Source of the DNA: Bacillota bacterium
Lineage (GTDB): Bacteria; Bacillota; SHA-98; UBA4971
Reading direction: 5' to 3'
NCBI GenBank assembly: GCA_014360195.1
Contig: JACIXY010000001.1
Span: 186,989-250,988 of the forward strand
DNA length: 64,000 nt
Position 1 is the first letter of the stretch. The number at the start of each line of letters is the position of its first letter. Below, piece by piece: positions 3,602 to 62,877 of this stretch. The notes under the pieces were generated by a model. It did not search any database and was not told the origin of the DNA. It worked only from the letters and a program-made list of their open reading frames with translations. The translations under genes and the position numbers were made by a program.

Positions 3602-5278
<1,677 letters not shown>

Positions 5279-5613: not shown

Positions 5614-5625
5614 CAATCCGATACC

Positions 5626-5655: not shown

Positions 5656-5736
5656 TAGGTGGACCCGCAAATTTCCGGGATCGGAGCGGGGCCTGCTCAT
5701 GGGTGACCTTGCGTTCGGCGCTCCGGCCCCGCCTGT

Positions 5737-21735: not shown

Positions 21736-21810
21736 TCCCTGGTAGCTCAATGGCAGAGCGGCCGGCTGTTAACCGGTAGGTTGCAGGTTCGAGTCCTGCC
21801 CAGGGAGCCA
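21736..21810 (+). tRNA. tRNA-Asn (anticodon GTT)
   Basis: Cloverleaf: acceptor TCCCTGG/CCAGGGA, anticodon loop CTGTTAA, T-loop GGTTCGAGTCC, encoded CCA. Confidence 0.85.
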
Positions 21811-21816
21811 GGAATT

Positions 21817-21892
21817 CGGGCCTATAGCTCAGCGGTAGAGCAACCGGCTCATAACCGGTCGGTCCCTGGTTCGATCCCAGGTGGGCCCACCA
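21817..21892 (+). tRNA. tRNA-Met (anticodon CAT, elongator or Ile2-type, G1:C72)
   Basis: GGGCCTATAGCTCAGCGGTAGAGC...anticodon loop CTCATAA...GGTTCGATCCC...CCA. Confidence 0.85.
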
Positions 21893-24040: not shown

Positions 24041-24430
<390 letters not shown>

Positions 24431-48391: not shown

Positions 48392-48603
48392 CCTTCCCTC
48401 CCTGGGACTTGAGGCCGTTGTCACGGGCAGCCGTCTCCGGGCCTCCCAGGAGGCGGTGCCGCCGGAGTGTCGGGTGCCACCGCGCTGCCCACGAGGCGGC
48501 ACGAAGAACCGACAACGCGCCGCGCCGTGGCCTGCGTGCCGCGACCACGTGGAGAGCGGCGCGAAGGCGCGCCTTTGCGTTTGCCTGTGATTTCTCTTTT
48601 GCC

Positions 48604-49269
48604 TTACGATATTAGACAACGGGCTTCCGAGTCCTTCTCCAGGCTCTCCAGCCGCTCCTCGAGTTCCTCTATTCTGTGGCTGAGGGATTCAAGCGCCGAC
48701 TGGACGGGGTCTGGCAGGTTCTGGTGGTTGAGGTCAATCCCCGGGACGCGCTTGCCGTACCTGGCGACGACCCTGCCCGGCACGCCCACCACGGTCGCGC
48801 CGGCCGGCACTGGCCTCAGCACCACGGCCCCGGCGCCGATCTTCGCCTCATCACCGACCTCGAATGACCCCAGTACCTTTGCTCCGGCGGCTATGACGAC
48901 GCGGTTCCCAATGGTTGGATGGCGCTTACCCTTCTCCTTGCCGGTGCCGCCGAGGGTCACTCCCTGGTAGATGGTGACGTCGTCGCCGATCTCCGTGGTC
49001 TCGCCGATCACGACGCCCATGCCGTGGTCAATGAAAAGGCGGCGTCCGATGCGCGCTCCAGGGTGGATCTCTATCCCGGTCAGGAAGCGCACTACGTGTG
49101 AGATGAGCCTTGCGATGACGAACATCTTCCTCTGATAGAAGAAATGGGCGATCCTGTACCCTATGACCGCGTGAAGCCCAGGGTAGCACAGGATGACCTC
49201 GAGCACGTTCTTGGCTGCGGGGTCCCGCTCGAATACGACCTTGATGTCCTCACGAATGCGCTCAAACAT
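48604..49269 (-). CDS. cysE: serine O-acetyltransferase
   Basis: N-terminal SATase domain, then hexapeptide repeats ([38 protein letters not shown]). Confidence 0.9.
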
Positions 49270-49440
49270 GGGAAGCTCCCCCCAACTATGAATTCGGGAT
49301 AATACCCTAGTATTTCAGTCGGGTTTGTTGTATTATAACACACGAGGGCGCGATGCGCTAGGGGTTGGACGCCCGGCCGCCGGACCAGGCTCTGCAACCA
49401 GCAGGGCGCGCAGAGCGCAGGCCGAGGTTACGAGGAGACG

Positions 49441-49468
49441 GACAGGAACTTACGCACCCTCACTTAGG
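49441..49468. repeat. solo terminal-inverted-repeat fragment of the MITE-like family in the cysK 5' region
   Basis: GACAGGAACTTACGCACCCTCACTTAGG matches the arm-TIR junction of the other copies. Confidence 0.5.
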
Positions 49469-49583
49469 GATGCAGAGGAGCGCCCGCAAGGCAGCGCGCA
49501 AAGCACGAATGGCGGGCTCGGCTGGTGGATGCGAGCCCCAGCAGCAGGAGCCTTCGAAGTGTTCGAGGAGAGTGATTGTCGTG

Positions 49584-50498
49584 GCAAGAATCGCCGAGAG
49601 CGTGCAGGACATTATCGGGAGGACACCCCTTGTCAGGATCCGTCGGATTGCTGGAGGGCTACGGGCGGAGATCGCGGCGAAGCTGGAATTCATGAATCCA
49701 GGCGGGAGCGTGAAGGACCGCACCGCCCTCGGGATGCTCCTCGCAGCGGAGAAGGATGGCAGGCTTGGACCAGGGTCGGTCGTCGTGGAGCCAACCAGCG
49801 GCAACACGGGGATCGCCCTTGCGATGCTCTGCGCATCGCGCGGCCTGCGCCTCATCGTGACCATGCCTGAATCTATGAGCGTCGAGAGGCGCAGGATCCT
49901 TGAGGCTTACGGCGCAGAGGTTGTGCTTACCCCCGCCGGCGAGGGGATGGCCGGGGCGGTGCGCCGGGCCGCAGCCATCGCAGGTTCAACGCCTGGGGCG
50001 TTCATGCCCCAGCAGTTTACAAATCCCGCAAACCCTGACATCCACCGCAGAACGACGGCGAGGGAGATCTGGGAGGATACCGACGGCAAGGTGGACGTGC
50101 TGGTCGCGGGGGTGGGCACAGGCGGAACCATCACGGGGGTGGGCGAAGTTCTCAAGGCCAAGAACCCTTGCCTGCGCGTCGTTGCGGTGGAGCCGGAGGA
50201 GTCCCGGGTACTCGAGGGCGGACCGGCCGGACGGCATGGAATCCAGGGCATCGGCGCAGGGTTTGTGCCTGACGTGTTGAACGTCGGCATCATAGATGAG
50301 GTCGTGCCTGTGTCAACCGCTGACGCCGTTCTGATGGCCGGCAGGCTTGCCAGGGAGGAGGGCATCCTGGCAGGCATCTCCTCGGGCGCGGCGCTTGCGG
50401 CCGCCGTGCGCGTCGCAGGGCGGCCCGAGAACGAGGGGCGCCTCGTGGTCGTGGTCTTCCCTGACGGCGGCGAGAGGTACCTATCAAGTGCCGGCTGA
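49584..50498 (+). CDS. cysK: cysteine synthase A (O-acetylserine sulfhydrylase)
   Basis: PLP-lysine motif [28 protein letters not shown] start after GAGGAG. The upstream in-frame extension is Arg-rich and looks non-coding. Confidence 0.9.
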
Positions 50499-50797: not shown

Positions 50798-50872
50798 AAC
50801 CCACCAGATGTGGGCACACTGCGAGGAACCAATGAGTCCTTACTCAGCTGCGCAGGACGGAGGCTGATACAG

Positions 50873-51823
50873 GTGGCTGGCAACAGAAACAGGAGCTTGC
50901 TCTGGCTCGGAATCGGTCTTCTTGTCGTGGTGCTCGTGGTGGTCGGAGTGTCAAGGGGCAGGAGGGTGGCCCTCGCGAAAGAGCCCACAATAAGGGTTTA
51001 CCTGTCGGACCAGAAGCGGGTCCAGGCGATGCCCATGGAGGAGTACGTAGCTGCCGTGGTGGCAGGAGAGATGAAGAACTACTGGCCAAAGGAGGCTCTA
51101 GCGGCTCAGGCGATCGTGGCGCGCACGTTCGCGCTCAAGACTCTTGAGGAAAAGCGCGGGAAGGGACCGATGGGTTCGGACATTCAGGCAGGGTTCAAGC
51201 AGGCCCAGGAATTCAAACCGGAGAACATAAACGACGCAATCAGATCGGCCGTCCGTGAGACGCGGGGGAAGGTCCTCACCCACAACGGCAAGCTCATCGA
51301 CGCGTGGTTCCACTCGAACGCCGGGGGTATCACGGCTCTCGCCAAGGAAGGCCTGAACTTTCGCGGTCCCGAGCCGCCCTACACCGTGGTCAAGAAAAGC
51401 CCCGACATGACGCCGGACGTCCCTGTCGAGGACCGCGTCTGGTCGGCGACGTTCAGCACGGCCGAGATCGAGGCCGCTCTGAATGAGATCGGGATCCCGG
51501 TCAGGGGGATAACCGGCATGACCATAGCAAGCCGGGGTCCTTCAGGGCGTGCGCAGACGATAACCATCCGCCATTCCGGCGGGGACGTCACGATCGGCGG
51601 CAACGACCTCCGGGTGGCCCTCGACCCCATGCGCATGAGGTCTAACCTCATAACGAGCCTTGAGGTTCGCGACGGCCAGGTGCGCATGAGCGGCAAGGGT
51701 TTCGGCCACGGCGTCGGGATGAGCCAGTGGGGCGCCCACAACATGGCGAAGGCAGGGCGCCGACACGAGGAAATCTGCACCTACTATTTCAAGGACGTGA
51801 GGGTGGAAAAGCGCTGGGCGTAG
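50873..51823 (+). CDS. spoIID: stage II sporulation protein D (SpoIID/LytB domain lytic transglycosylase)
   Basis: N-terminal TM, then SpoIID signature EALAAQAIVARTFAL...WFHSNAGGIT...GHGVGMSQWGA. The start is either the GTG at 50873 (RBS GGACGGAGG) or the GTG at 50810. Confidence 0.8.
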   Translation: MAGNRNRSLLWLGIGLLVVVLVVVGVSRGRRVALAKEPTIRVYLSDQKRVQAMPMEEYVAAVVAGEMKNYWPKEALAAQAIVARTFALKTLEEKRGKGPMGSDIQAGFKQAQEFKPENINDAIRSAVRETRGKVLTHNGKLIDAWFHSNAGGITALAKEGLNFRGPEPPYTVVKKSPDMTPDVPVEDRVWSATFSTAEIEAALNEIGIPVRGITGMTIASRGPSGRAQTITIRHSGGDVTIGGNDLRVALDPMRMRSNLITSLEVRDGQVRMSGKGFGHGVGMSQWGAHNMAKAGRRHEEICTYYFKDVRVEKRWA

Positions 51824-52076
51824 CCCATAGCGTGGAGGGAATTCCATCGTGGGAGTGGAAAGAAGAGGGCAGCGGGAAGAGGTCCTGGAGCGAAGCATCA
51901 CGCGGGAGGAGGATGGACTGGTGAAAGAGGAGTGCACACTGGTGGACGACGGTGCGGGCGACGCTGCGTCCGCCGGGTCCGGGCCCGTGAGGAGCGCAGC
52001 CGACGAATGTCCCGTGATGCTGCCTGAGGCGCACAGGGAGGGCGGTCAGGACGGCGATGTGCCAGGGAAGGCACGG

Positions 52077-54698
52077 ATGCCAGGGCCGAGCCCGGGGGCT
52101 GCCGGGTCTCGCGGTGGCGAGAGGCGCATCACGCTCCGGATCACCGGAATGACGTGCGCGTCGTGCGCCGCCAGGGTCGAGCGAGCGCTCGCGAGGTCCG
52201 AGGGCGTGCTCTCGGCCCGCGTCAACCTTGCCACCGAGCGCGCTACCGTTGTGTACGACCCGTCCCGCACTAGCGCGTCCGTGCTCGTCGACAGGGTCCG
52301 CGAGGCTGGCTATGACGTGGGCCTCGCCACTGTCACCCTCGTTGTCCCGGGCATGACGTGCGCCTCATGCGTAGCCAGGGTCGAGCGGGCGCTTCGGCGC
52401 GCCCCGGGCGTCATCGACGCAGCAGTAAATCTTGCCACCGAGAGGGCCACGGTCCGCTACAGCCCCGACGAGACCTCTCCTGCCGATCTTGTGAGAGTCG
52501 TCCACGATGCGGGGTACGAGGCCCGCGAGGTCCGCGAAGGTGAAGAGGCGGGTGCCGCGAAGGACAGGGAAGAGCGCCGTCGCGAAGCCGAGATAAGGCG
52601 CCAGAGGGCCCTTTTTGTCCTTGCGGCGGCTTTGTCGGCGCCCCTCCTCACTCTCATGCTTTCCCACCTCTTGGGTGTGCACCTGCCCTCGCCTTTCACC
52701 GACCCTCTCTTCCAATTCGCCCTCGCCACGCCGGTGCAGTTCGTGGCCGGGTGGCAGTTCTACACAGGGGCGCTGGCGGCTCTTCGCGCGCGCTCCCCGA
52801 ATATGGACGTGCTCGTTGCACTGGGCACCACGGCGGCATATGGGTTCAGCGTATACCAGACGTTCGTGGGTCGAGGCCACGTCTACTACGAGTCCTCAGC
52901 CGTGGTCATCACCCTTGTGCTTCTCGGGCGGCTCCTCGAGGCCCGGGCGAAGGGCAGGACCTCTGAGGCTATAAGAAAGCTCATGGGCCTTGCGCCCCGA
53001 GTTGCGCACGTGGTGCGCGATGGCAAGGAAGTGGACGTGCCCACGGACGAGGTGCGGGTGGGCGACGTAGTTGTCGTGAAGCCCGGCGAGAGGATACCGG
53101 TGGACGGGGTTATACTCGAGGGCACCTCGGTAGTGGACGAGTCCATGCTCACCGGCGAAAGCATCCCCGTCGAGAAGGGCCCCGGCGACGAGGTCACCGG
53201 GGCGACGGTCAACAGGCACGGGTCGTTCAAACTCCGTGCGACCAGGGTGGGAAGGGACACCGTTCTCTCCCAGATCGTACGGATGGTGGAAGAGGCGCAG
53301 GGGTCGAAAGCGCCCATCCAGCGCGTCGCCGACGTCGTCGCAGGGTACTTCGTCCCGGTGGTGCTTGGGGTGGCGCTCGTGGCCCTCGTAGGGTGGCTCA
53401 TCGCCACGGGTGATCCCGGCCGCGCGTTCTTTGCGTTCACGGCGGTGCTGGTGATCGCGTGCCCGTGCGCCCTCGGCCTTGCCACGCCGACTGCCATCAT
53501 GGTGGGCACAGGGAGGGGAGCTGAAGCTGGCATCCTCATCCGTGGCGCGGAGCATCTCGAAAGGGCGCACAAGATCGATACCGTGGTGTTCGATAAGACC
53601 GGGACCATCACCAGGGGCGAGCCGGAGGTGGTAAGCGAGGCAACGGCCCGAGCTGCGGGAACGTCAACAGCCGCGGTTGTGGCAACGGCAACGGCTGCAC
53701 CTGCGACGGCGGCAACGGCCGGGGTTACGACCGCGGCCGGGATCCCAGCTGGGGTTGCGCCCGCGGCAGAGCGGGCAGCAGCAGGAGACGCGTCGGCCAC
53801 ACCACGGGCGCAGGTCGGGCCTCGCGGCGGGCGCGAGCCGGCCCGCGAGATGCTGAGGCTGGCGGCGTCGGCCGAGATGCGGTCTGAGCACCCGCTTGGC
53901 GCGGCCATCGTGCGGCGGGCCCACGCCCTCGGGATCGAGCCGGCGGAGCCCACGCAGTTCGAGGCAATCCCGGGGAAGGGCATCCGCGCCCAGGTGGACG
54001 GCACCGTCGTACTCGTCGGGACGCGACGTCTTCTTGAGGAGAACGGCGTGGACGTGCCTTGCGGTCTTGATGAGGTACGGCACTCCATGGAGGCGCAGGG
54101 GCAGACCGCGATGCTCGTGGCGGCGGACGGACAGGCCCTCGGTGTCATCGGCGTGGCTGATACTGTGAAGGAGACTTCGCGCGAGGCCATCAGGGCCCTT
54201 CGTGCCCTGGGCGTGGACGTGGTCATGATAACGGGCGACAACGAGCGCACGGCCCGGGCCATCGCGCGCCAGGTGGGCATCGAGAGGGTGCTCGCAGAGG
54301 TGCTCCCGGGCGACAAGGCGAGGGAGGTGGAGCGGCTGCGCGCCGAGGGCAGGGTCGTGGCCATGGTCGGCGACGGCATCAACGACGCGCCGGCCCTCGC
54401 CGCGGCTGATGTCGGGATAGCCATGGGGACCGGCACCGACATAGCCATGGAAGCGGCGGATATCACGCTCATTCGAGGGGACCTTCGCGCCGTGGCCGCG
54501 GCCATCCGCCTCAGCCGACGCACTATGGCAACTATCCGCCAGAACCTGTTCTGGGCCTTCATCTACAATGTAATTGGCATCCCACTCGCGGCTTTCGGCC
54601 TTCTCTCCCCGGTGATCGCCGGGGCGGCCATGGCGTTCTCATCGGTGTCGGTCGTGACCAACTCCCTCAGGTTGCGCCGCTTCGACCCGCTCAGGTAG
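52077..54698 (+). CDS. copA: copper-translocating P1B-type ATPase with two N-terminal HMA domains
   Basis: Two [15 protein letters not shown] metal-binding domains, CPC ([12 protein letters not shown]), [15 protein letters not shown]. Contains an Ala/Thr-rich low-complexity insertion in the N-domain. The ORF is open from 51849, but the first 75 codons look non-coding. An ATG at 52077 or 52017 is more plausible. Confidence 0.85.
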
Positions 54699-55695
54699 GA
54701 AGCGCAGCGATTATGGCATCCGCCATTTTGTCGGTGGTGGCGTTGCCACCGAGGTCTGGCGTAAGGACACGGCCTTCGGCCAGGACCTTCGTTACCGCGG
54801 CTTCGACGGCGGCGGCGCGTTCAGCCTCTTCGAGGTGTCGCAGCATCATGGCGCCGGACAGGATCGTGGCGATGGGATTTGCGATCCCTCGCCCCGCGAG
54901 CTCGGGAGCACTTCCGTGTACGGGCTCGAAGACGGCTATTTCGTCCCCGATGTTGGCCCCGGGAGCGAGTCCCAGCCCGCCTGCAAGTCCCGACGCGAGG
55001 TCCGACACGATGTCCCCGTACAGATTGGGCAGGAGCAGCACGTCGAAGCTCTCTGGTGCCATCACGAGCTGCATGCACAGGGCGTCGATGATGCGATCGT
55101 CGAACTCGATCTCCGGATAGTCGCGGGCCACCTGACGGGCGCAGTCTAGGAAAAGCCCATCAGTGAGCTTCATGATATTGGCCTTGTGGCCGCAGGTCAC
55201 CTGACGTCGTCCCTCGCGCCTGGCGAACTCCATCGCGGCGCGGGCGATGCGTTCCGAGCCTTTCCGAGTAATGACTTTGACCGTTTCTGCCGTGTCCTCG
55301 TCCACCCATCGCTCCTTGCCCGCGTATACGTCCTCAGTGGCCTCTCGAAAGATCACGAGGTCCACTCGAGCATACCTTCCGGGCACGCCGGGCAGCGTTC
55401 TAACCGGGCGGACATTGGCATAAAGGTCGAGAGCAACACGCAGGCCCACATTGACGCTGCGGAACCCGCTTGCTACAGGCGTCGTGACGGGGCCTTTGAG
55501 GGCGACGCCGGTCCGTCGCACCGACTCGACGACCTCGTCGGGGAGGGGAGTGCCGCAGCGCGCGAGCATTTCCGCACCTGCCTGCACTTGCTCCCACTCG
55601 ATCGCAGCTCCGGTGGCTTCGAGCACTCGCTTTGCCGCGAGGACCACTTCCGGGCCGATGCCGTCCCCAAGGATAAGCGTTACTCTGTGCGACAC
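54691..55695 (-). CDS. leuB: 3-isopropylmalate dehydrogenase family enzyme (short LeuB/HICDH/IDH-type beta-decarboxylating dehydrogenase)
   Basis: 334 aa, [49 protein letters not shown]. Last gene of the leuA-like/leuC/leuD/leuB string. Confidence 0.75.
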
Positions 55696-55809
55696 GGTCT
55701 ATCCCTCCGGCGGACCGGCTTTGATGTCGTCGGTCGCACGTAGTCGCGCATAAGTAAGTCCTTACCCGTCCGGCGGATTGGTGCGATGGTGCTTGCAGTT
55801 CACGCAAGG

Positions 55810-56313
55810 TCACAAGCCAAGGTGGAATCCGCCGTGCTTACGGATGTGTGCCGCAAGACCGCCGTCCTCGAAGATTCGCTGCATGAACCGGGGAAGCGGA
55901 CTTGCGTTGACGGTGATGCCGCGGGTGAGGTTGTGCACGGTGCCGCGGCAGAGGTCGACCTCGAGCTCGTCCCCGTCGAGGATGCCGCTGGTGTCGCACT
56001 CCACCACGGGCAGGCCGGTGTTCACCGCGTTTCTATAGAACAGCCTGGCGAAGGATGCCGCGATGACCGCTCCGACCTTCGAATGGATGAGTGCAAGGGG
56101 CGCCTGCTCTCGAGAGGAGCCGCACCCGAAGTTCTTTCCCGCCACGATGAAGTCTCCAGGCTTGAGCCTGGCATGGAACCCGGGGTCAAGGTCCTCCATC
56201 ACGTGTTTTGCGAGTTCGTCCATGTCGAGCGTCTTGAACTTGTACTTGCCGGCGATGATGTAGTCGGTATTGATGTCATCGCCGAACCTGTGGGACCTTC
56301 CTCTCAGCACCAC
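55810..56313 (-). CDS. leuD: 3-isopropylmalate/homoaconitate dehydratase small subunit (archaeal-type, 167 aa)
   Basis: MVLRGRSHRFGDDINTDYIIAGKYKFKT...GKNFGCGSSREQAP is the aconitase swivel domain. Confidence 0.85.
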   Translation of the reverse strand: MVLRGRSHRFGDDINTDYIIAGKYKFKTLDMDELAKHVMEDLDPGFHARLKPGDFIVAGKNFGCGSSREQAPLALIHSKVGAVIAASFARLFYRNAVNTGLPVVECDTSGILDGDELEVDLCRGTVHNLTRGITVNASPLPRFMQRIFEDGGLAAHIRKHGGFHLGL

Positions 56314-56366
56314 CTGGCTATCACCCCTGTGATAACCGACCGTCGGCCGGGCCTTTTGCTGGCTTG

Positions 56367-57623
56367 TTACCCAAGGAACTTCCTGGGGTCCGTGATCTTT
56401 CCTGTGATGGCCGAGGCCGCCACCGTCGCAGGGGAGGCGAGGTATATCTCGGCCGCGGAATTACCCATTCTCCCCTTGAAATTGCGGTTGGCGGTGGATA
56501 TCACGACCTCGCCGTCCGCGGGCACGCCGGCATGGGTGCCGACGCACGGTCCGCATCCAGGGACAAGTACCGTGGCGCCTGCTTCCAGGAGGATCTTCAG
56601 CACTCCCTCGCGCAGCGCTCCCATGAGGACCTGCTTGGACGCTGGCGCAACCACGAGGCGCACGGAGCGGTGTACCGTCTTTCCTTCCAGTATCGCGGCG
56701 GCGACGCGGAGGTCTTCTAGCCGGCCGTTCGTGCAGGTCCCGATGAAAGCCTGGTGAATCTCGACTCCTGAAAGGTCTTGGGCATCACAGACCTGGTCCA
56801 CCTTGTGCGGACGAGCTACTTGCGGGACAAGCCGCGAGACGTCGAACTCTCGTGCGTCAGCATAGCGAGCGTCTTCGTCGGCGAAGACCGGGTGGAACTT
56901 CTTCTTTGATCGACCGCGTACCCACGCGAGGACCTCTCCGCTGGGCGCTATAATTCCAGCTTTGGCACCCATCTCCACTGCCATGTTGCACAGCGTGAAC
57001 CTGGCGTCCACCCCAAGGTGGCCCACCGCCTCGCCGCAGAACTCGCAGGACATGTATGTTGCACCGGAGGCTGTAAGCCTCCCGGCAAGGTATAGCGCCA
57101 GGTCCTTGCTATATGTACCCGCCGGCAGCCGGCCTCTGCAGACGATCTTCATGCTCTCCGGCACCTTGAGCCACGTCTTGCCCGTAATGAGGGCTGCCGC
57201 GAGGTCCGTGGACCCTACGCCCGTGGAGAAGGCGCCGAGGCCGCCATAGGTGCAGGTATGGGAGTCCGCTCCTATGACAAGGTCTCCTGGCACAACGTGC
57301 CCGCGCTCCGGGATCAGTTGGTGACACACGCCCTCGCCGATGTCATACAGGATGATGCCTTGCTCCCTGGCGAAGTCCCTCATGAGTTTGTGCAGGTTCG
57401 CCGTCCCCTCGTTGGGGCTGGGTGCGCCGTGGTCTATCACCATGGCGACCTTCGCGGGGTCGAAGACCCTCTCGCCGCCCATGTCACGGAAGGCCTTGAT
57501 CGCAAGAGGCGATGTCCCGTCCTGCCCCATTACGAAGTCCACGTCAGCGAGGACGATATCTCCGGCGCGCGCATCGTTACCCGAGTGGGTTGAGAGGATC
57601 TTCTCGGCGATGGTCTTACCCAA
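56367..57623 (-). CDS. leuC: 3-isopropylmalate/homoaconitate dehydratase large subunit (archaeal-type, 418 aa)
   Basis: Aconitase family with Fe-S ligand Cys (GTCTNGRLEDL, PGCGPCVG). MGKTIAEKILSTHSG N-terminus. Confidence 0.85.
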   Translation of the reverse strand: MGKTIAEKILSTHSGNDARAGDIVLADVDFVMGQDGTSPLAIKAFRDMGGERVFDPAKVAMVIDHGAPSPNEGTANLHKLMRDFAREQGIILYDIGEGVCHQLIPERGHVVPGDLVIGADSHTCTYGGLGAFSTGVGSTDLAAALITGKTWLKVPESMKIVCRGRLPAGTYSKDLALYLAGRLTASGATYMSCEFCGEAVGHLGVDARFTLCNMAVEMGAKAGIIAPSGEVLAWVRGRSKKKFHPVFADEDARYADAREFDVSRLVPQVARPHKVDQVCDAQDLSGVEIHQAFIGTCTNGRLEDLRVAAAILEGKTVHRSVRLVVAPASKQVLMGALREGVLKILLEAGATVLVPGCGPCVGTHAGVPADGEVVISTANRNFKGRMGNSAAEIYLASPATVAASAITGKITDPRKFLG

Positions 57624-57662
57624 GCTGACGATGCCTCCCTTGTGCGTTGGCGCCGCTCGCTG

Positions 57663-58859
57663 CTACTTGTGAGCGGACATATCCCTTTTGGCGTCTTCGT
57701 ATATATATACAAGTTCTTTATCGAAGAGGGGGCGTTTGAGGTTTACCGCAGCGGCGCGCACTGCGGGCAACATGGCCGCCGCCTCCTCGTCAGTGAGGTT
57801 GATGCCGTATTCAAGGAACTTCGCCTTGAGCGCATGTTTCCCGGAATGCTTCCCGATGATGATCTGCCTCTGGAGCCCTACTTCCTCTGGCGGAAAGACC
57901 TCGTAAGTCTTGGGATTCTTGAGGACTCCGTCCGCATGGATGCCAGACTCATGTGCGAACGTGTTTGTGCCGACAATAGGCTTCGAAGGAGGTATCTCCC
58001 TGCCCGAGGCCCTCGCCACGTACTCGGAAACCTCCCTGAACCTGGTGGTTTTGACCCCGAGGTCGATGCCGTAGATGTGCTTGAGGGCCATTACGACCTC
58101 CTCGAGAGCCGCGTTGCCCGCACGCTCGCCGAGACCGTTCACAGTGACCCCGACGTACCTGGCACCCGCCTGCACGCCTGCCAGGGTGTTGGCGGTCGCC
58201 ATTCCGAAATCGTTGTGGGTATGAGTCTCGATGTCCAGCCCGGTCTGCTCGCGAAGGGTCTTGACGCGGTCATACATGGTCAACGGATCCAACAGGCCGA
58301 CGGTGTCGCAGTAGCGGAGCCTGTTCGCGCCCGCGCCCTTCGCTGCCATGGCGAACTCAAGGAGGAAGGCGGGGTCAGCGCGGCTTGCGTCCTCGGCGTT
58401 GACCGATATGTACAGGCCATGCTGCGCTGCGTACACCACTGCCTGCGTCATGGCGTCGAGGACCTGCTGACGAGTCATCCGAAGCTTGTGAAAGATGTGT
58501 ATGTCGGAGACCGAAATGGATATGGCTACGGCATCCACTCCGCACTCGATCGAGGCATCTATGTCTGAGATGACGGCCCTGTTCCACGCCATGATGCTGG
58601 CCTCGAGGCCCGCGTGGGCGATCGCCTTGACTGCTTCTTTCTCGTCGCCGCCCATGGCAGGGATCCCGGCCTCGATCTGGTCAACACCGATTTCGTCCAG
58701 CATCCTCGCGATTCGCAGCTTCTCCGTGAGAGCAAACACGACGCCTGCTGTTTGCTCGCCGTCCCGCAACGTTGTGTCAACAAGCAGCACCTTCTTGTCT
58801 CTGTCCTTCATTGCTCCTTCCCTCCTCTTTTCCAGTAGCGGGCTTGCATACATATGCAC
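57663..58859 (-). CDS. short-form 2-isopropylmalate synthase / homocitrate synthase / citramalate synthase family enzyme (no C-terminal LeuA regulatory domain)
   Basis: [18 protein letters not shown]...[20 protein letters not shown]...[20 protein letters not shown]. 398 aa, most like NifV/CimA-type members of the family. A candidate promoter TTGACA-N18-TAGTGT lies on the minus strand at about 58935-58967. Confidence 0.75.
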
Positions 58860-59157
58860 ACGCTGCCGCGGCCGTATCGCAATCCCGTGCTGTGTCGCCT
58901 GCTGACGACCGATCAGCGGTCTGCATGTGTATGTATATGCTATTACACTACACTCTCGAACGTCTTCCTGTCAAGAGCAGATTTAGACCATCATGCCTTT
59001 TTCGGGAGACCACGGCAGAGAAGTCGGGCGTCCTGCAACCTCTGTCAGCATTCACGCTTCCGGCGGGAGGGTGCCCGGCAGGAAAGGGCATAATCTGCGA
59101 GAAGTATAAAGAATATAGAGCAGGCGCTGCGAAGAACGGGTCTACGGGGGGCTTGCT

Positions 59158-60462
59158 GTGGTTCTGGTCTCGTGCAGTTATGTACCACTCGAGATCCCGC
59201 TCGCCCTCGGGATACCTGCGAAGAGGGCCGTTTTCCGGGAGCCGGGCGCCTCCTGCGAGGCGTATCTTCCGCGCGACTTCTGTCCCTACGCGAAGGCGTT
59301 TGCGCGGGAGCACGGGCAAGACTGTGTTGTCGCTATAGCGGGGTCGTGCGATGCCATGCGGCGCGCCTATGACGCGCTACGATACTTTGGACTCGCCCGC
59401 GAAGTTCATTTCGTGGATGTGCCGAGAAGCTGCGGTGGCGGAGCAGAGGCGTACTACGCCGGGGTTCTGAGAGACTTTGCCCTCGAGCTGGCGCATGCCG
59501 TCCGGCGCGAAAGAGGCGATGCCGGAGCATCCGCGCACGATGTGGACGGGCCTTTGTTCCAGCGACGACTCGTCGCGGTCATGCAGTCCATGAATTCGCT
59601 TCGCCAGGGGCTTTCACGCCTGTTCGAGCTTGTGGCCGAGGGCCGGATATCGGCCATGGACGCCATCGGTACAGCGCTCAGGGTGAATGATGCCCTTGGT
59701 ACCAGGCCCCGGGGCAACTGGGACAGTGCTTCAGGTGCGCCTGCCGACGCAGGGGCGGCACGAGGCAGCGAGCGCGGAGGGTTCATGAGCACGGCGGGCA
59801 CGGCGGTGGTGCTGGAGGGCGCGATGCGCCTCGCGGGACCGTGCGGGCCGGGCGCCGGCGGAAGCGGGGGAAGCGGCCAAAGCCGTAGTGGCGGCCGTCC
59901 CGGCGGAAGGGCGCGGGTCGGGGTCTCGGGGACATGCCTCCTGGAGCCTGCGCTTCTCGGCGTGCTCGAGGAGGTGGGGCTGGCGGTGGCCTTCGTAGAT
60001 TCGTGCCTTGGTCCGCGCAGCTTTGATTTCCGTGTCCCGACGGACGAAGGCGTGGGCCAGGCGGAGGGAGACCCGCGTACGGACGCGGGTGCTGACGAGA
60101 ATGCGGCGGCCGGTGTAAACTCCAGCGTAATCCCCGGCGGGAGCCTCGACCCGTTTTACGCGCTAGCCCACGCGTACCTCGGCAAACCCGCATGTCCCAG
60201 GATGTTCGTGGGCGATATGCGAGCACAGCATCTCCGAAAGCTCGTGCGGTCATGCGGGGTGCACGGGATCGTATACTTCGCGCCGAAGTTTTGCGACCAC
60301 GCGTACTACGATTTCGCGGAGCTAAAGAGGCACGTGGGAGAAAGCGAAGGGCTGCCCATGCTTCTTCTGGAGGGGGAATACGGGTCGGCTAGATCCGGCC
60401 AGACCCTTACGCGCGTCACCGCGTTCAGGGAGATGCTGGAAGGACGGCTGGGGCTGGGATGA
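59158..60462 (+). CDS. 2-hydroxyacyl-CoA dehydratase family subunit (HgdB/HadC-like, PF06050) with large Gly/Ala/Ser-rich internal insertion
   Basis: N-terminal CPYAKAFAREHG...VVAIAGSCDAMRRAYDALRYFG and C-terminal FAPKFCDHAYYDFAELKRH...PMLLLEGEYG match the dehydratase D-component fold. About 150 aa of low-complexity sequence lies in between. GTG start. Confidence 0.65.
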   Translation: MVLVSCSYVPLEIPLALGIPAKRAVFREPGASCEAYLPRDFCPYAKAFAREHGQDCVVAIAGSCDAMRRAYDALRYFGLAREVHFVDVPRSCGGGAEAYYAGVLRDFALELAHAVRRERGDAGASAHDVDGPLFQRRLVAVMQSMNSLRQGLSRLFELVAEGRISAMDAIGTALRVNDALGTRPRGNWDSASGAPADAGAARGSERGGFMSTAGTAVVLEGAMRLAGPCGPGAGGSGGSGQSRSGGRPGGRARVGVSGTCLLEPALLGVLEEVGLAVAFVDSCLGPRSFDFRVPTDEGVGQAEGDPRTDAGADENAAAGVNSSVIPGGSLDPFYALAHAYLGKPACPRMFVGDMRAQHLRKLVRSCGVHGIVYFAPKFCDHAYYDFAELKRHVGESEGLPMLLLEGEYGSARSGQTLTRVTAFREMLEGRLGLG

Positions 60463-61799
60463 TGCACTTCGGCATCCCATCAAGGTTCTGGCAAATGGTG
60501 GGCCAGGCTGCCGGGGGCGCGGCCCGCCAGACTGCCACGCGAGGGGCCAGATGGACGGTGGTCCGTCCGGAGGTCCTACTGCGCTGGAAGTTGGCATACA
60601 AGGTCGCTTCAGCGGCGCTTCCGTTGCTCGAGGCGCGCGGGGCGAAGGCATACCAGGTTGCGGCGATAAGGTGCGTGCTCTCTGACTTTGCCGATGCCTA
60701 CCTCGGCAGGAAACCATGCATATTCACGAGCGCCTTCGTGCCGACCGAGCTGGTTTACGGCCTCGGCGGCGTGCCGTTCCTCCCCGAGGCCGCGGCGGGC
60801 CTTGCGGCGGCCTTCGGGCTTGCTGCCAGGAGCCTCTTTGCTTGCGAGGCCCTCTGGTACTCGCCGGATCTTTGCAGCTTCCACCGGGCTGGACTGGGCG
60901 GGGCCGCGTCGGGTCTTCTGCCGCGACCGTCCGCTGTCATCGTCACATCCCACCTGTGCGACGGGGGCAAGAGGTCGCTACTTCACATCAGCAGGCTCGC
61001 CGGATGCCCGTTTTACATGCTGGACGTCCCGTACATCCCCTCCGACCGGGCCACGCGGTGGCTTGCTTCCCAGATCGAGCACGTGGCAGGGGACCTCGCG
61101 CGGCGCGTGCCGGGGCTTTCCCTCGAGGGGCTGGCGCAGGCGCTTCACCGCTCCAACGAAGCTCTTGCGGAATACGAGCGAGTCTCGGCACTGAGGCGAA
61201 ACGTGCCGGCCCCGTGGCGCGGGTCCGAAGCGCTGAACTACGTCCTTCTGTTCCTGTGGTCGTGGGGAAGCCCTTCGCTTGCACCGTTCTATCGCGCGCT
61301 CCGGCTGCATCTCGAGCGGACGATTGCCACAGGTGACTTCCCGGTCCGGGACGAGCGGCACAGGCTCCTGTGGCTGAACCTCAGGCCCTACTATGATACA
61401 AGGGTGTTCAAGCATCTCGAAGGCGACCGGGCTTCGTCGGTGGCTTTCGAGGAATACAGCTTCGCATACTGGCCCAGCCTGGATCCCCGCGATCCCTTCG
61501 CGAGCCTTGCGGAGAAGATGATGTCAAACTTCGGCTGGGGCCCGATCGAGCGCCGGCTCGAAGCCCTCGAGAGGCTTGTGGACGACTATTCCGTCGACGG
61601 GGTGGTGCAGTTCGCCCAGTGGGGGTGCAGGCAATCCAACGGCGGTGCAGCAATCATCGCCAGGGAGCTCAGGAAGAAGGGCATTCCCTTCCTCAACCTG
61701 GATGGAGACGGGGTCGACGCGAGATGTGGAACTGAGGCGCAGGCCATCACCAGGCTCGGGGCCTTCATAGAGCTTCTCGATGCGCGGAGGGGCTGGTGA
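60459..61799 (+). CDS. 2-hydroxyacyl-CoA dehydratase / benzoyl-CoA reductase family subunit (HgdA/BcrC/BadD-like)
   Basis: HLCDGGKRSLLHISRLAGCPFYMLDVPYIP and FAQWGCRQSNGGAAIIARELRKKGIPFLNLDGDGVD are conserved Cys-containing motifs of the family. The ATG overlaps the upstream stop. Confidence 0.7.
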   Translation: MMHFGIPSRFWQMVGQAAGGAARQTATRGARWTVVRPEVLLRWKLAYKVASAALPLLEARGAKAYQVAAIRCVLSDFADAYLGRKPCIFTSAFVPTELVYGLGGVPFLPEAAAGLAAAFGLAARSLFACEALWYSPDLCSFHRAGLGGAASGLLPRPSAVIVTSHLCDGGKRSLLHISRLAGCPFYMLDVPYIPSDRATRWLASQIEHVAGDLARRVPGLSLEGLAQALHRSNEALAEYERVSALRRNVPAPWRGSEALNYVLLFLWSWGSPSLAPFYRALRLHLERTIATGDFPVRDERHRLLWLNLRPYYDTRVFKHLEGDRASSVAFEEYSFAYWPSLDPRDPFASLAEKMMSNFGWGPIERRLEALERLVDDYSVDGVVQFAQWGCRQSNGGAAIIARELRKKGIPFLNLDGDGVDARCGTEAQAITRLGAFIELLDARRGW

Positions 61800-61805
61800 T
61801 ACGGG

Positions 61806-62618
61806 ATGTTTGTGGCGGGAATAGACGTGGGGTCAACAACCACGAAGGCTGTCCTCCTGAGTGACGGGAAGCTTGCGGGGACGCACGCGATGCCCACGGG
61901 GGTGGACCTTGCCGCCGCGGCTGACGAGTGCCTTCGTGTGATTTGCCGCGCGGCTGGTGTGGGCCCTGACAGGCTTGCGGCCCTCGTGGCGACCGGGTAT
62001 GGCAGGGACAGGGTGACCGGTGCCGCGAGGACGGTGACCGAGATCACGTGCCACGCCCGCGGCGCGCGGGCCCTCGTCCCGTCGGCGCGGGTGGTGGTAG
62101 ACGTTGGAGGCCAGGATTCGAAAGTCATCCGGCTGGACGATGACGGCATGGTCGCGGACTTCGTGATGAACGACAAGTGCGCGGCGGGCACCGGCAGGTT
62201 TCTCGAGGTGATGGCCGCGAGGCTGAACGTTCCGCTGGAGGAGTTCGGCATGAGGTGGCGAAGGGCGAAAGAGGCTGCGCGGATCTCCAGCACGTGCACG
62301 GTGTTTGCTGAGTCGGAGGTCATAAGCCTGCTCTCGCGTGGCGTGAGCCCCGAGCCCATAATCAGGGGCCTGTGCGATGCGGTGGCGGATAGACTCGCAG
62401 GGATGGTGCATCGAGTGGGCCTTGGCGGAGGGCTTGTGATGACGGGCGGGGTGAGCCGGAACGAGGGCGTCAGGAGGTCCCTCGAGGAGAAGCTGTTCGC
62501 GCCGGTGACCGTTCCGGAGGGATCCCAGTTTGCCGGGGCGTACGGGGCCGCCCTCATCGCTTTCGAGCTAGGTGAGGGTGCAGAGATGCTTCCGACTTTT
62601 GGGAGAGGTTGCCGGTGA
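61806..62618 (+). CDS. CoA-substrate-specific enzyme activase (HgdC/BadF/BcrAD-type [4Fe-4S] ATPase)
   Basis: IDVGSTTTKAVLL...DVGGQDSKVIRLDDDGMVADFVMNDKCAAGTGRFLEVMA (ASKHA fold with Cys ligands). The last ~16 codons (LGEGAEMLPTFGRGCR*) are encoded by a MITE-like repeat copy. Confidence 0.8.
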   Translation: MFVAGIDVGSTTTKAVLLSDGKLAGTHAMPTGVDLAAAADECLRVICRAAGVGPDRLAALVATGYGRDRVTGAARTVTEITCHARGARALVPSARVVVDVGGQDSKVIRLDDDGMVADFVMNDKCAAGTGRFLEVMAARLNVPLEEFGMRWRRAKEAARISSTCTVFAESEVISLLSRGVSPEPIIRGLCDAVADRLAGMVHRVGLGGGLVMTGGVSRNEGVRRSLEEKLFAPVTVPEGSQFAGAYGAALIAFELGEGAEMLPTFGRGCR

Positions 62619-62650
62619 CTCAAAGAGAGAGTGTGACACTGGAGGTGAGG
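62569..62650 (-). repeat. MITE-like element, short form, 3'-truncated/degenerate, overlapping the activase gene 3' end and supplying its stop codon
   Basis: CTAGGTGAGGGTGCAGAGATGCTTCCGACTTTTGGGAGAGGTTGCCGGTGACTCAAAGAGAGAGTGTGACACTGG. Confidence 0.75.
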
Positions 62651-62877
62651 TCGCAGCGGCTGGAACTCTCGCCCGCATGCCACCGTTGTACATGAGTGGT
62701 TTTCTTCCGACCGCCCGTCGCGGACGTAGACACACGCCGTGCCATCGCCTGTGACGGGCTTTTCGCCGGGTTATCCTGGATCGCGGCTGGTGCAGAGCGT
62801 CCCGAGCCCGCTCCCGATGCCGAGTGCCGCGACCATGAATCGGCGGCGGGCGAAGAGTACCCAAGTGGTCGGCTTGG

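What the first reader, a model, noticed from the sequence alone, without database searches (positions are those of the whole stretch)
59158..62618. 2-hydroxyacyl-CoA dehydratase-type radical enzyme system (two dehydratase subunits + ATP-dependent activase) with a ~150-aa Gly/Ala/Ser-rich insertion
The three consecutive genes encode HgdB-like, HgdA-like and HgdC-like proteins, the architecture of oxygen-sensitive ketyl-radical dehydratases and benzoyl-CoA reductase-type enzymes. The substrate cannot be inferred here: there are no adjacent CoA-transferase or dehydrogenase genes in the window. The first subunit carries an extraordinary low-complexity insertion (GNWDSASGAPADAGAARGSERGG...GPGAGGSGGSGQSRSGGRPGGRARVGVSG...DAGADENAAAGVNSS) between its two conserved halves. 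I have not seen this in characterised members. Such uncharacterised YjiL/YjiM-like triads are widespread but functionally unassigned.
Basis: partly seen in the sequence, partly recalled or inferred. Interest (0 to 1): 0.5.

Follow-up and report, generated by a model that had tools for sequence, protein, structure and literature searches.

The report
Iron-sulfur radical enzyme operon with floppy loops
Three co-transcribed genes encode an ATP-powered iron-sulfur radical enzyme of unknown substrate from an uncultured anaerobic Bacillota bacterium. The striking glycine/alanine-rich "insertion" is three fast-evolving, probably disordered surface loops, of a kind this GC-rich lineage also carries in an unrelated neighbouring protein.

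Summary
The three genes are real and at the stated coordinates: P1 59158-60462, P2 60459-61799, P3 61806-62618. They form a tight operon, and the same gene order recurs in at least 20 independent loci, all uncultured Bacillota.

The "150-aa insertion" is mis-described. It is three loop expansions (aa 109-132, 182-250, 292-330), about 76 aa net over the shortest orthologues. They bracket a conserved helix and a conserved strand that carries the cluster ligand Cys283. The loops are predicted disordered, evolve at dN/dS of about 0.6 against 0.15 for the core, contain in-frame indels, and lengthen with genomic GC. The neighbouring CopA carries similar inserts. This is not an assembly artefact.

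All cysteine ligands are present. P1 keeps all six Cys that bind the [8Fe-9S] double-cubane in BzdN and DCCP. P2 keeps the three Cys of the catalytic [4Fe-4S] in BzdO and HadB. P3 keeps the two Cys that ligate the activase cluster.

The system therefore has the cofactor layout of Bzd-type benzoyl-CoA reductase with a single-gene activase, rather than that of a classical 2-hydroxyacyl-CoA dehydratase. It fails every equivalog model. The substrate is unknown, but NRPS-fused relatives point to a thioester. I score it an ordinary-to-moderately interesting new variant.

The parts
58860..59157 (+). Intergenic region between the divergent homocitrate-synthase-like gene and P1. It holds a G-rich Shine-Dalgarno-like run (ACGGGGGG) about 8 nt before the GTG start.
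   Evidence: Sequence read. No Rfam match at E<=1. No sigma-70 consensus match in this stretch.
59158..60462 (+). P1, 434 aa. BzdN/DCCP-like HGD-D subunit, the predicted carrier of an [8Fe-9S] double-cubane. Invariant Cys6, 42, 64, 283, 346 and 379 (codons at 59173, 59281, 59347, 60004, 60193 and 60292).
   Evidence: PF06050 match. The six Cys are invariant in 32 orthologues. Profile alignment places them on BzdN Cys36/73/100/263/293/327 and on the DCCP ligands. The ligand list comes from PMC11971306. The AF2 model has pTM 0.81 and its best PDB match is BzdN 8s02_B.
59482..59553 (+). Variable loop 0 of P1 (aa 109-132): 24 aa here against 12 in the shortest orthologues.
59701..59907 (+). Variable site 1 of P1 (aa 182-250). 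Two Gly/Ala/Ser-rich disordered stretches (aa 186-210 and 227-248) flank a retained helix (aa 210-225). It contains two micro-duplications, at 59789-59806 and 59856-59877.
   Evidence: Length is 69 aa against 27-35 in short orthologues. pLDDT is below 50. TRF result. Composition is G20 A11 S8 of 69 residues, with GC 0.77.
59908..60030 (+). Conserved core element of P1 (aa 251-291): strand-helix-strand ending in DSC(283)LG.
   Evidence: Conserved in all orthologues. pLDDT is 85-96. Aligns to BzdN 243-269 including Cys263.
60031..60147 (+). Variable site 2 of P1 (aa 292-330): 39 aa against 7-8 in short orthologues. Predicted disordered at aa 298-327.
60459..61799 (+). P2, 446 aa. BzdO/HadB-like catalytic HGD-D subunit with three invariant Cys (139, 167, 390; codons at 60873, 60957 and 61626) and invariant Glu110. 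The N-terminal 33 aa are low-confidence and lineage-variable.
   Evidence: PF06050 over its full length. Invariants in 37 sequences down to 25 % identity and in 149 distant representatives. Alignment to BzdO Cys95/128-129/380 and to HadB. The AF2 model has pLDDT 89.8, and its best matches are BzdO (TM 0.78-0.80) and HadB.
61806..62618 (+). P3, 270 aa. ATP-dependent electron-transfer activase ('archerase') with Cys125 (KCAAGTGRF) and Cys164 (STCTVFAESE), the positions that ligate the subunit-bridging [4Fe-4S].
   Evidence: TIGR00241 at 278 bits against a 125.4 cut-off. Matches to PDB MbdQ (3e-64), HadI (1e-62) and HgdC (1.5e-58), with both motifs aligned.

Best explanation
**What it is.** The locus encodes a self-contained three-protein, oxygen-sensitive Fe-S radical enzyme of the class-I benzoyl-CoA reductase / 2-hydroxyacyl-CoA dehydratase (BCR-I/HAD) superfamily. 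It belongs to an uncharacterised clade.

**Inferred mechanism.**
1. A P3 homodimer holds a bridging [4Fe-4S] cluster, is reduced by ferredoxin or flavodoxin, and uses ATP hydrolysis to push a low-potential electron into the P1-P2 heterodimer.
2. P1 binds an [8Fe-9S] double-cubane through six cysteines. It acts as the electron entry and storage site, as in BzdN.
3. P2 binds a three-Cys [4Fe-4S] whose fourth iron is open to solvent or substrate. There it performs one- or two-electron radical chemistry on an acyl-thioester, most likely a CoA ester.

The cofactor layout (6 Cys + 3 Cys) and the gene order (N-like, O-like, then ATPase) match Bzd-type benzoyl-CoA reductase rather than classical dehydratases. 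I therefore favour an ATP-consuming reductase over a catalytic-electron dehydratase, but this is inference. The substrate is unknown.

**The Gly/Ala/Ser-rich 'insertion'.** It is three disordered surface-loop expansions. They were generated by slippage and GC-biased drift in this GC-rich lineage and are most likely functionally neutral.

**Shown here:** gene structure, family membership, ligand conservation, synteny, and the evolutionary behaviour of the loops.

**Inferred:** cluster types, direction of electron flow, thioester substrate, and reductase rather than dehydratase.
For: **Family and fold.**

**Cluster ligands.**
- All six BzdN [8Fe-9S] ligands (PMC11971306) align to invariant P1 cysteines.
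- The same six are kept in distant P1-like partners and in fused proteins.
- P2 keeps only the three Cys equivalent to BzdO Cys95/128/380.
- P3 keeps both cluster Cys motifs.

**The three genes work together.**
- They occur together, in the same order, in 18 genome loci and in the distant members L026 and L027, with otherwise unrelated flanks.
- Natural fusions exist: P1-like+P2-like in one chain (P0095, P0131) and P2-like+activase (P0153, P0240).
- P1/P2 overlap by 4 bp and P2/P3 are 6 nt apart.

**Thioester substrate.** Three independent representatives of the P2 clade are NRPS modules of the form C-A-T-HGD-D. In locus L028 such a module is followed by an activase and a short-chain dehydrogenase/ketoreductase.

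**Loops.**
- pLDDT is below 50 at aa 186-210, 227-248 and 298-327, in an otherwise confident model.
- dN/dS is 0.52-0.60 in the variable sites against 0.15-0.17 in the core, with in-frame 3-aa indels relative to L007.
- P1 length correlates with locus GC (Spearman rho 0.77, p=3e-4, n=17).
- Micro-duplications of 9-bp units lie inside site 1.
- The neighbouring CopA has a ~60-aa Ala/Thr/Gly insert and a ~95-aa N-terminal extension, both absent from lower-GC relatives.
Against: - No cofactor has been measured. Six conserved Cys in the right alignment positions do not prove an [8Fe-9S] cluster.
- P2 lacks BzdO's catalytic and thioester-binding residues: Glu65 becomes Val105, His131 becomes Gly, Tyr97 becomes Phe141 and Gln274 becomes Leu308 (against residues listed). 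It is therefore not a benzoyl-CoA reductase, and the analogy may not extend to two-electron chemistry.
- There is only one ATPase gene, as in dehydratases and DCCP, not two as in BCR.
- P2 keeps a Glu (E110) aligned with HadB Glu55. That would fit dehydratase-type acid/base chemistry. The role of Glu55 is from my memory and was not checked.
- No CoA-ligase or CoA-transferase is linked in any locus, so a CoA ester substrate is not supported by context.
- The NRPS-fused relatives score only 267-315 bits against the P2 profile, compared with 350 or more for close family members, so they may differ in substrate.
- dN/dS of about 0.6 in the loops is below 1, so some constraint on them cannot be excluded.
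Confidence: 0.6

Rival explanations
1. It is a genuine 2-hydroxyacyl-CoA dehydratase. A single catalytic electron is recycled, and the activase is needed only sub-stoichiometrically. The enzyme might dehydrate 2-hydroxyglutaryl- or 2-hydroxyadipoyl-CoA derived from the 2-oxoacid made by the divergently transcribed homocitrate-synthase / aconitase-family / isocitrate-dehydrogenase-family genes.
For: - Single-gene activase whose best PDB matches include HadI and HgdC.
- P2 superposes on HadB as well as it does on BzdO (TM 0.77/0.85).
- P2 keeps Glu110 aligned to HadB Glu55.
- The neighbouring 2-oxoacid-elongation-type genes lie at 54691-58859.
- An NRPS-linked relative sits next to a ketoreductase, which would make a 2-hydroxyacyl thioester.
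Against: - P1 has six ligand Cys, not the three of HadC/HgdB-type beta subunits.
- HadB and HadC equivalog scores are 54 and 31 bits against cut-offs of 750 and 700.
- No 2-hydroxyacid dehydrogenase or CoA-transferase occurs at any of about 20 loci.
- The homocitrate-synthase block is next to the triad only in the window's own clade. It is absent or decayed elsewhere, so the linkage is not conserved.
- From my own knowledge, the gene order is the reverse of hgdCAB, hadIBC and fldIBC.
Confidence: 0.22
2. It is a DCCP-like small-molecule reductase. The double-cubane in P1 is itself the active site and reduces a small unsaturated or metal-bound molecule. The frequent CopA neighbour might then hint at metal-related chemistry.
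For: - The best NCBIfam hit of both P1 and P2 is NF040772 double_cubane.
- P1 keeps all six DCCP ligands.
- A CopA-type ATPase lies upstream on the same strand in 10 of 18 loci, directly adjacent in five.
- Haft reported DCCP genes next to organometallic (SAO) cassettes.
Against: - Scores are 74 and 70 bits against a 350 cut-off.
- The enzyme is a heterodimer, and its more conserved subunit (P2, 55-97 % identity across the clade against 33-94 % for P1) has the three-Cys open-site cluster typical of catalytic subunits that bind thioesters.
- DCCP's seventh conserved Cys is absent from P1.
- NRPS-fused relatives imply tethered thioester substrates.
- The CopA adjacency is confined to two sub-clades and may simply be inherited synteny.
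Confidence: 0.1
3. The low-complexity segments have a function, for example as a docking, tethering or regulatory linker for the activase or for oligomerisation. They are not neutral drift.
For: - dN/dS in the variable sites is 0.5-0.6, not 1.
- The same three sites are expanded in several independent sub-clades (L011, L015, P0010, P0033).
- Site 2 sits between two cluster-ligand-bearing elements.
Against: - There is no sequence conservation within the loops, even between 70 %-identical orthologues.
- Lengths vary from 7 to 39 aa and from 27 to 85 aa.
- Short-loop orthologues keep every catalytic motif.
- The unrelated CopA next door has the same kind of insert.
- P1 length tracks GC content.
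Confidence: 0.08

Closest known systems
Bzd-type class I benzoyl-CoA reductase catalytic module BzdNO with BzdPQ (PDB 8S02; Nat Commun 2025, PMC11971306)
   Same: - Heterodimer of two HGD-D paralogues.
- The N-like subunit has all six [8Fe-9S] ligand Cys, and the O-like subunit has three Cys for a [4Fe-4S] with an open site.
- Gene order is N-like, O-like, then ATPase.
- BzdN is the best structural match of P1 and BzdO is the best of P2.
- P3's best PDB hit is MbdQ.
   Different: - Only one ATPase gene, where BCR has two (P and Q).
- P2 lacks BzdO Glu65, His131, Tyr97 and Gln274.
- Sequence identity is only 20-22 %.
- It fails TIGR03190/03191/03192 at 45/49/192 bits against cut-offs of 454/449/380.
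- There are no aromatic-degradation genes nearby.
- The hosts are strict-anaerobe Bacillota MAGs.
(R)-2-hydroxyacyl-CoA dehydratases HadBC/HgdAB/FldBC with activators HadI/HgdC (PDB 3O3M, 4EHT, 1HUX)
   Same: - Same superfamily and fold.
- The activator is homodimeric and encoded by a single gene.
- P2 shares the three-Cys cluster site and a Glu aligned to HadB Glu55.
   Different: - The beta-type subunit (P1) has six ligand Cys instead of three.
- Equivalog models fail by more than tenfold.
- No CoA-transferase or 2-hydroxyacid dehydrogenase partners are present.
- The gene order is reversed (from my own knowledge of those operons).
Double-cubane cluster protein DCCP with DCCP-R (CHY_0487/0488, PDB 6ENO/7YYL; NF040772; includes E. 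coli YjiM/YjiL)
   Same: - P1 aligns over its full length and keeps the six ligand Cys.
- The ATPase is a single gene placed downstream.
   Different: - DCCP is a homodimer of one 7-Cys protein, whereas here two diverged paralogues are encoded and one has lost the distal sub-cluster ligands.
- The seventh Cys is absent.
- NF040772 scores are 74 and 70 bits against a 350 cut-off.

Membership tests
BCR-I/HAD superfamily (Pfam HGD-D PF06050 plus activase PF01869/TIGR00241) | Two HGD-D-fold subunits that score above the curated cut-off | tested here: met
   P1 scores 147.6 bits and P2 205.6 bits against a 28.4 cut-off. The AF2 models match only BzdN/O, DCCP, HadB/C and MbdN/O at E<1e-5.
BCR-I/HAD superfamily (Pfam HGD-D PF06050 plus activase PF01869/TIGR00241) | ASKHA-fold ATPase activase with two Cys that ligate a subunit-bridging [4Fe-4S] | tested here: met
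   TIGR00241 scores 278 bits against a 125.4 cut-off. The KC(125)AAGTGRF and STC(164)TVFAESE motifs align with MbdQ and HadI.
2-hydroxyacyl-CoA dehydratase sensu stricto (HadBC/HgdAB/FldBC/LcdAB) | Alpha subunit with a three-Cys [4Fe-4S] and an open iron site | tested here: met
   P2 Cys139, Cys167 and Cys390 are invariant and align to the HadB cluster region.
2-hydroxyacyl-CoA dehydratase sensu stricto (HadBC/HgdAB/FldBC/LcdAB) | Beta subunit with only three ligand Cys ([4Fe-4S]/[4Fe-5S]) | tested here: not met
   P1 has six invariant Cys matching the double-cubane ligands. The HAD cluster description comes from PMC11971306.
2-hydroxyacyl-CoA dehydratase sensu stricto (HadBC/HgdAB/FldBC/LcdAB) | Scores above the NCBIfam equivalog cut-offs (HadB NF052455, HadC NF052456) | tested here: not met
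   54.2 bits against 750, and 31 bits against 700.
2-hydroxyacyl-CoA dehydratase sensu stricto (HadBC/HgdAB/FldBC/LcdAB) | Operon partners that supply the substrate (2-hydroxyacid dehydrogenase, CoA-transferase) | tested here: not met
   None in the window from 39962 onward, and none in about 20 related loci.
2-hydroxyacyl-CoA dehydratase sensu stricto (HadBC/HgdAB/FldBC/LcdAB) | Dehydration of an (R)-2-hydroxyacyl-CoA with a recycled electron | not testable with these tools
   This needs an anaerobic enzyme assay.
Bzd-type class I benzoyl-CoA reductase (BzdNOPQ) | N subunit with six Cys for the [8Fe-9S] (Cys36/73/100/263/293/327) | tested here: met
   P1 Cys6/42/64/283/346/379 align one-to-one.
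Bzd-type class I benzoyl-CoA reductase (BzdNOPQ) | O subunit with three Cys (95/128/380) for the [4Fe-4S]-OH2 | tested here: met
   P2 Cys139 and Cys390 align exactly. Cys167 aligns within one residue of Cys128.
Bzd-type class I benzoyl-CoA reductase (BzdNOPQ) | Catalytic and thioester-binding residues of BzdO (Glu65, His131, Tyr97, Gln274) | tested here: not met
   The aligned P2 residues are Val105, Gly169/170, Phe141 and Leu308.
Bzd-type class I benzoyl-CoA reductase (BzdNOPQ) | Two distinct ATPase subunits (P and Q) | tested here: not met
   A single BcrAD_BadFG gene is present in the window and in all related loci.
Bzd-type class I benzoyl-CoA reductase (BzdNOPQ) | Scores above the TIGR03190/03191/03192 cut-offs | tested here: not met
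   44.8 bits against 453.8, 49.2 against 448.6, and 192.5 against 380.2.
Double-cubane cluster protein DCCP (NF040772) | Six ligand Cys of the 7-Cys motif | tested here: met
   Met for P1 only. P2 keeps three of them.
Double-cubane cluster protein DCCP (NF040772) | Seventh conserved Cys beside the cluster, and a homodimer encoded by one gene | tested here: not met
   P1 has no Cys in the aligned GIPAKRAVF segment. Two paralogous genes are always present.
Double-cubane cluster protein DCCP (NF040772) | Score above the NF040772 cut-off | tested here: not met
   74.2 and 69.7 bits against 350.
Double-cubane cluster protein DCCP (NF040772) | Physical presence of an [8Fe-9S] cluster | not testable with these tools
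   This needs Fe/S analysis, spectroscopy or a solved structure.

The most novel reading that the evidence does not exclude
P1-P2-P3 would represent a second functional class, after Bzd-type benzoyl-CoA reductase, in which a double-cubane [8Fe-9S] subunit feeds stored electrons to a three-Cys [4Fe-4S] catalytic subunit. It would be driven here by a homodimeric activase and would catalyse an ATP-dependent two-electron reduction of a non-aromatic acyl-thioester. The same catalytic module would have been recruited as an in-line tailoring domain of NRPS assembly lines (C-A-T-HGD-D).
Probability: 0.25. Interest if true: 0.6.

Novelty: new variant of a known kind. Interest (0 to 1): 0.3.

Why it matters
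The feature that drew attention, the low-complexity 'insertion', is ordinary. It is compositional loop growth in a GC-rich lineage and should not be read as a new domain.

What is modestly useful is the re-classification. Databases call these genes '2-hydroxyacyl-CoA dehydratase family', but the cofactor ligand pattern is that of BzdNO. [quoted passage not shown]

The P2-type catalytic subunit defines a large, entirely uncharacterised clade. Against the P2 profile, 804 representatives (one per 50 %-identity cluster) score at E<=1e-30, and the top 150 share a conserved signature.

If the layout is confirmed, the clade would show that double-cubane-fed radical enzymes are far more widespread than aromatic degradation. 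The NRPS-fused members would offer a tractable way to find out what chemistry the clade performs, because the adenylation domain and the neighbouring ketoreductase constrain the substrate.

Tried and rejected
- **Riboswitch or leader upstream of P1.** Rfam found nothing at the gathering threshold or at E<=1 in 58700-59300.
- **Promoter and terminator consensus scans.** These were uninformative: one promoter-like site on the wrong strand inside P2, and terminator-like sites at or below shuffle expectation.
- **Functional link to the divergent homocitrate-synthase/aconitase/IDH block.** Rejected as a conserved association. The block occurs only in the window's own clade, is decayed in L001/L018, and is absent from the other sub-clades.
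- **CopA adjacency.** This is real (10 of 18 loci), but I could not distinguish inherited synteny from function. It is left as an observation.
- **Collapsed repeat or assembly artefact.** Rejected.
- **TAL-effector hits for P3 in the PDB search.** These have zero significant stretches and reflect Ala/Gly/Leu-rich composition. Ignored.
- **A first hmmalign run with --trim.** It shifted the residue numbering and gave nonsense column counts. It was redone without trimming, and only the latter is used.
- **Literature searches.** I looked for the role of HadB Glu55 and for NRPS-embedded HGD-D domains and found nothing usable in the held library. Statements about these topics are marked as memory or as unverified.
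- **Context of distant relatives.** P0092 (L025) showed an HGD-D gene without an upstream P1-like gene at the contig edge. This was uninformative.

Full report
**1. Observation**

The window carries three + strand ORFs at exactly the stated coordinates:
- P1: 59158-60462, GTG start, 434 aa.
- P2: 60459-61799, 446 aa, with its ATG overlapping the P1 stop by 4 bp.
- P3: 61806-62618, 270 aa, starting 6 nt after P2.

Pfam places P1 and P2 in HGD-D (PF06050) at 147.6 and 205.6 bits against a 28.4 cut-off. It places P3 in BcrAD_BadFG. NCBIfam TIGR00241 'acyl-CoA dehydratase activase' scores 278 bits against a 125.4 cut-off. The gene-level observation is confirmed.

**2. The 'insertion'**

*What it is.* A 32-sequence orthologue alignment (A1) and 17 genome loci show that the Gly/Ala/Ser-rich stretch is not one block. 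P1 is expanded at three sites relative to the shortest orthologues (356-358 aa):

| Site | Residues | Length here | Length in short orthologues |
|---|---|---|---|
| 0 | aa 109-132 | 24 | 12 |
| 1 | aa 182-250 | 69 | 27-35 |
| 2 | aa 292-330 | 39 | 7-8 |

The net excess is about 76 aa.

*What lies between the sites.* Site 1 contains a helix (aa 210-225) that the short orthologues also have. Sites 1 and 2 are separated by a universally conserved strand-helix-strand (aa 251-291) that ends in DSC283LG.

*Structure prediction.* An AlphaFold2 model built on A1 (pTM 0.81) is confident everywhere except aa 186-210, 227-248 and 298-327, where pLDDT is below 50.

*Evolutionary behaviour.*
- Against the 91 %-identical orthologue in L007, the variable sites show dN/dS 0.60 against 0.15 for the core, with two in-frame 3-aa indels. 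The more distant pairs give 0.52-0.55 against 0.16-0.17.
- TRF finds only two micro-duplications of 9-bp units inside site 1. One of them encodes the GGSGGSG run. This points to slippage.
- P1 length rises with locus GC (Spearman rho 0.77, p = 3e-4, n = 17).

*The same trait in an unrelated protein.* The adjacent CopA-type ATPase of the same lineage has a ~60-aa Ala/Thr/Gly insert and a ~95-aa low-complexity N-terminal extension. Both are missing from lower-GC relatives, and the insert is missing even from L019.

*Artefact test.* The same P1 segments occur in frame in independent assemblies at 94 % and 90 % identity (P0001 and P0002), so an assembly artefact is excluded.

*Conclusion.* These are real, translated, weakly constrained and probably disordered loop expansions, characteristic of the lineage rather than of this enzyme.

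**3. Cysteine ligands**

The BzdNO crystal-structure paper lists the [8Fe-9S] ligands of BzdN as Cys36/73/100/263/293/327. It lists the [4Fe-4S]-OH2 ligands of BzdO as Cys95/128/380 (PMC11971306).

*P1.* Single-sequence and profile alignments place P1 Cys6/42/64/283/346/379 on the six BzdN ligands, residue for residue, and on the corresponding DCCP cysteines. All six are invariant in A1. They are also kept in distant P1-like partners (L026, L027) and in the N-terminal halves of the fusion proteins P0095 and P0131.

*P2.* It keeps only Cys139, Cys167 and Cys390. These are invariant in 37 family members down to 25 % identity and in 146-149 of 149 distant representatives. They align to BzdO Cys95, Cys128 (within one residue) and Cys380, and to the HadB cluster site.

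*P3.* It has the KCAAGTGRF and STCTVFAESE motifs (Cys125 and Cys164) aligned with MbdQ and HadI.

**4. What kind of system**

*Structural matches.* The P1 model matches BzdN best (8s02_B, E 2e-16), then DCCP, then HadC. The P2 model (pLDDT 89.8) matches BzdO (TM 0.78-0.80, rmsd 3.0) and HadB (TM 0.77/0.85).

*How it compares with the three characterised kinds.* The predicted cofactor complement, a 6-Cys subunit plus a 3-Cys subunit, is that of BzdNO. It is not that of HadBC, where both subunits have three Cys and the beta cluster is [4Fe-5S], and it is not that of homodimeric DCCP.

The gene order (N-like, O-like, ATPase) also follows bzdNO(P)Q. As far as I recall, the dehydratase operons hgdCAB, hadIBC and fldIBC put the activator first. 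That point is memory, not tested here.

There are clear differences from BCR:
- One ATPase gene instead of two.
- P2 lacks BzdO Glu65, His131, Tyr97 and Gln274. The aligned residues are Val105, Gly, Phe141 and Leu308.
- Every equivalog model fails by a wide margin.

P1 and P2 also fail NF040772, the DCCP/YjiM family, at 74 and 70 bits against a 350 cut-off.

The system is a member of the superfamily but of none of the three characterised kinds. Its layout is BzdNO-like with a dehydratase/DCCP-style single activase.

**5. Distribution and context**

*Synteny.* Eighteen loci in species-representative genomes, plus metagenome contigs, carry P1-P2-P3 in the same order. The distant members L026 and L027 do too.

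*Hosts.* All are uncultured Bacillota MAGs, many from anaerobic digesters. They include Ca. Fermentithermobacillus carboniphilus and a Symbiobacterium MAG. L007 (Bacillota bacterium AS02xzSISU_21) is 91-99 % identical to the window genes across the region.

*Flanks.* They are otherwise unrelated: HSP33 and a 4HBT thioesterase in one locus, sporulation and regulatory genes in another, Band_7/NfeD in a third. No CoA-transferase, CoA-ligase or 2-hydroxyacid dehydrogenase recurs.

*The upstream block.* The divergent homocitrate-synthase-like / HacAB-like / Iso_dh block (54691-58859) accompanies the triad only in the window's clade and is decayed in UBA6811. I do not consider it functionally linked.

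*CopA.* A CopA-type ATPase lies upstream on the same strand in 10 of 18 loci and is directly adjacent in five. I could not decide whether this is more than inherited synteny.

**6. The wider clade**

A profile of the P2 family against 1.84 billion representative proteins gives 4374 hits at E<=1e-3 and 804 at E<=1e-30. The top 150 score 265-675 bits, whereas HadB, BzdO and DCCP score only 118-132 bits against the same profile.

The top 150 share these features:
- the three Cys;
- Glu97, Glu110 and Trp305;
- the motifs C-S-[FY]-H-[RK] and C-D-[GA].

P2 therefore belongs to a large uncharacterised clade of catalytic-type subunits.

Fusions within the clade tie the three proteins together:
- P1-like+P2-like in one chain: P0095 and P0131.
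- P2-like+activase: P0153 and P0240.

Three representatives (P0184, P0221, P0239; about 1510-1530 aa) are NRPS modules: Condensation - AMP-binding - PP-binding - HGD-D. Two of them also carry an N-terminal TubC docking domain. In locus L028 such a gene is followed directly by an activase and a short-chain dehydrogenase/ketoreductase, with a second HGD-D gene 7 kb downstream. In those members the substrate must be a phosphopantetheine-tethered acyl thioester. This is the best available hint that the clade acts on thioesters rather than on DCCP-type small molecules.

I found no paper in the held library that describes such a domain.

**7. Mechanism proposed**

The following steps are inferred by homology:
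1. Reduced ferredoxin or flavodoxin reduces the bridging cluster of the (P3)2 dimer.
2. ATP-driven electron transfer carries the electron into the P1 double-cubane.
3. The electron passes to the open-site [4Fe-4S] of P2.
4. P2 carries out radical chemistry on a thioester.

Because P1 keeps the double-cubane ligands that in BzdN serve two-electron storage, I lean towards a net reductase. The single activase and the HadB-like Glu110 keep a dehydratase reading alive. The substrate is unknown.

**8. Verdict**

- The insertion is ordinary lineage-specific disorder.
- The enzyme is a new variant within a known superfamily, currently mis-labelled as a dehydratase.
- Interest is modest at 0.3. The most interesting lead, the NRPS-embedded HGD-D domains, lies outside the window.

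Noticed in passing
L028:560-5146 (Logan SRR27456859_91626); also proteins P0221 and P0239: These are NRPS modules of the form Condensation - AMP-binding - PP-binding with a C-terminal P2-like HGD-D domain. Two of the three also carry an N-terminal TubC docking domain. In L028 the gene is followed by an activase gene (5143-5922) and an adh_short/KR gene (6301-7086), with a second HGD-D gene at 12233-13351. This implies radical dehydratase/reductase chemistry on a carrier-protein-tethered thioester. I found no description of this in the held literature.
   Followed up: partly
window 54691-58859 (- strand): A four-gene block lies divergent from P1. It comprises a NifV-type homocitrate-synthase-like protein (TIGR02660, 531 bits against a 463 cut-off), HacA/HacB-family aconitase large and small subunits, and an isocitrate/homoisocitrate dehydrogenase. 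This could be a 2-oxoacid chain-elongation route or, from my memory of Re-citrate synthases, a Re-citrate-synthase branch leading to 2-oxoglutarate. It is next to the triad only in the window's own clade and has decayed to fragments in UBA6811 (L001/L018), where a BREX gene sits instead.
   Followed up: partly
window 51849-54698 (+ strand): This is a CopA-type Cu(I) P-type ATPase with a CPC motif and two HMA domains. It carries a ~60-aa Ala/Thr/Gly-rich insert and a ~95-aa low-complexity N-terminal extension, both absent from lower-GC relatives. A CopA gene lies upstream of the triad on the same strand in 10 of 18 related loci and is directly adjacent in L012, L014, L016, L021 and L023.
   Followed up: partly
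window 60459-60557 (P2 aa 1-33): The N-terminus of P2 is also lineage-variable and low-confidence (pLDDT about 35). It has 12-aa and 5-aa insertions relative to the UBA6811 orthologue. This is another example of the lineage's loop and terminus growth.
   Followed up: partly
L010 (JBLNCC010000012.1): This 4.4-kb contig is labelled 'Betaproteobacteria bacterium MAG135', yet it carries the triad at 61-84 % identity to the Bacillota genes and has 65 % GC. It is probably a mis-binned contig rather than evidence of the system outside Bacillota.
   Followed up: no
window 24046-24428 and 21736-21889: Bacterial class A RNase P RNA (299.5 bits) and two adjacent tRNA genes.
   Followed up: no
window 47978-50498: An FmdE-domain protein and a hexapeptide serine-acetyltransferase-like gene lie on the - strand, next to a PALP (cysteine-synthase-type) gene on the + strand. 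A SpoIID-domain gene follows at 50810-51823.
   Followed up: no
window 59454-60253 and 61586-62683 (- strand): Long antisense ORFs (115-365 aa) overlap P1 and P2-P3. Similar antisense ORFs appear in related loci only because the sense genes are conserved. They are shadow ORFs typical of high-GC DNA, not genes.
   Followed up: partly
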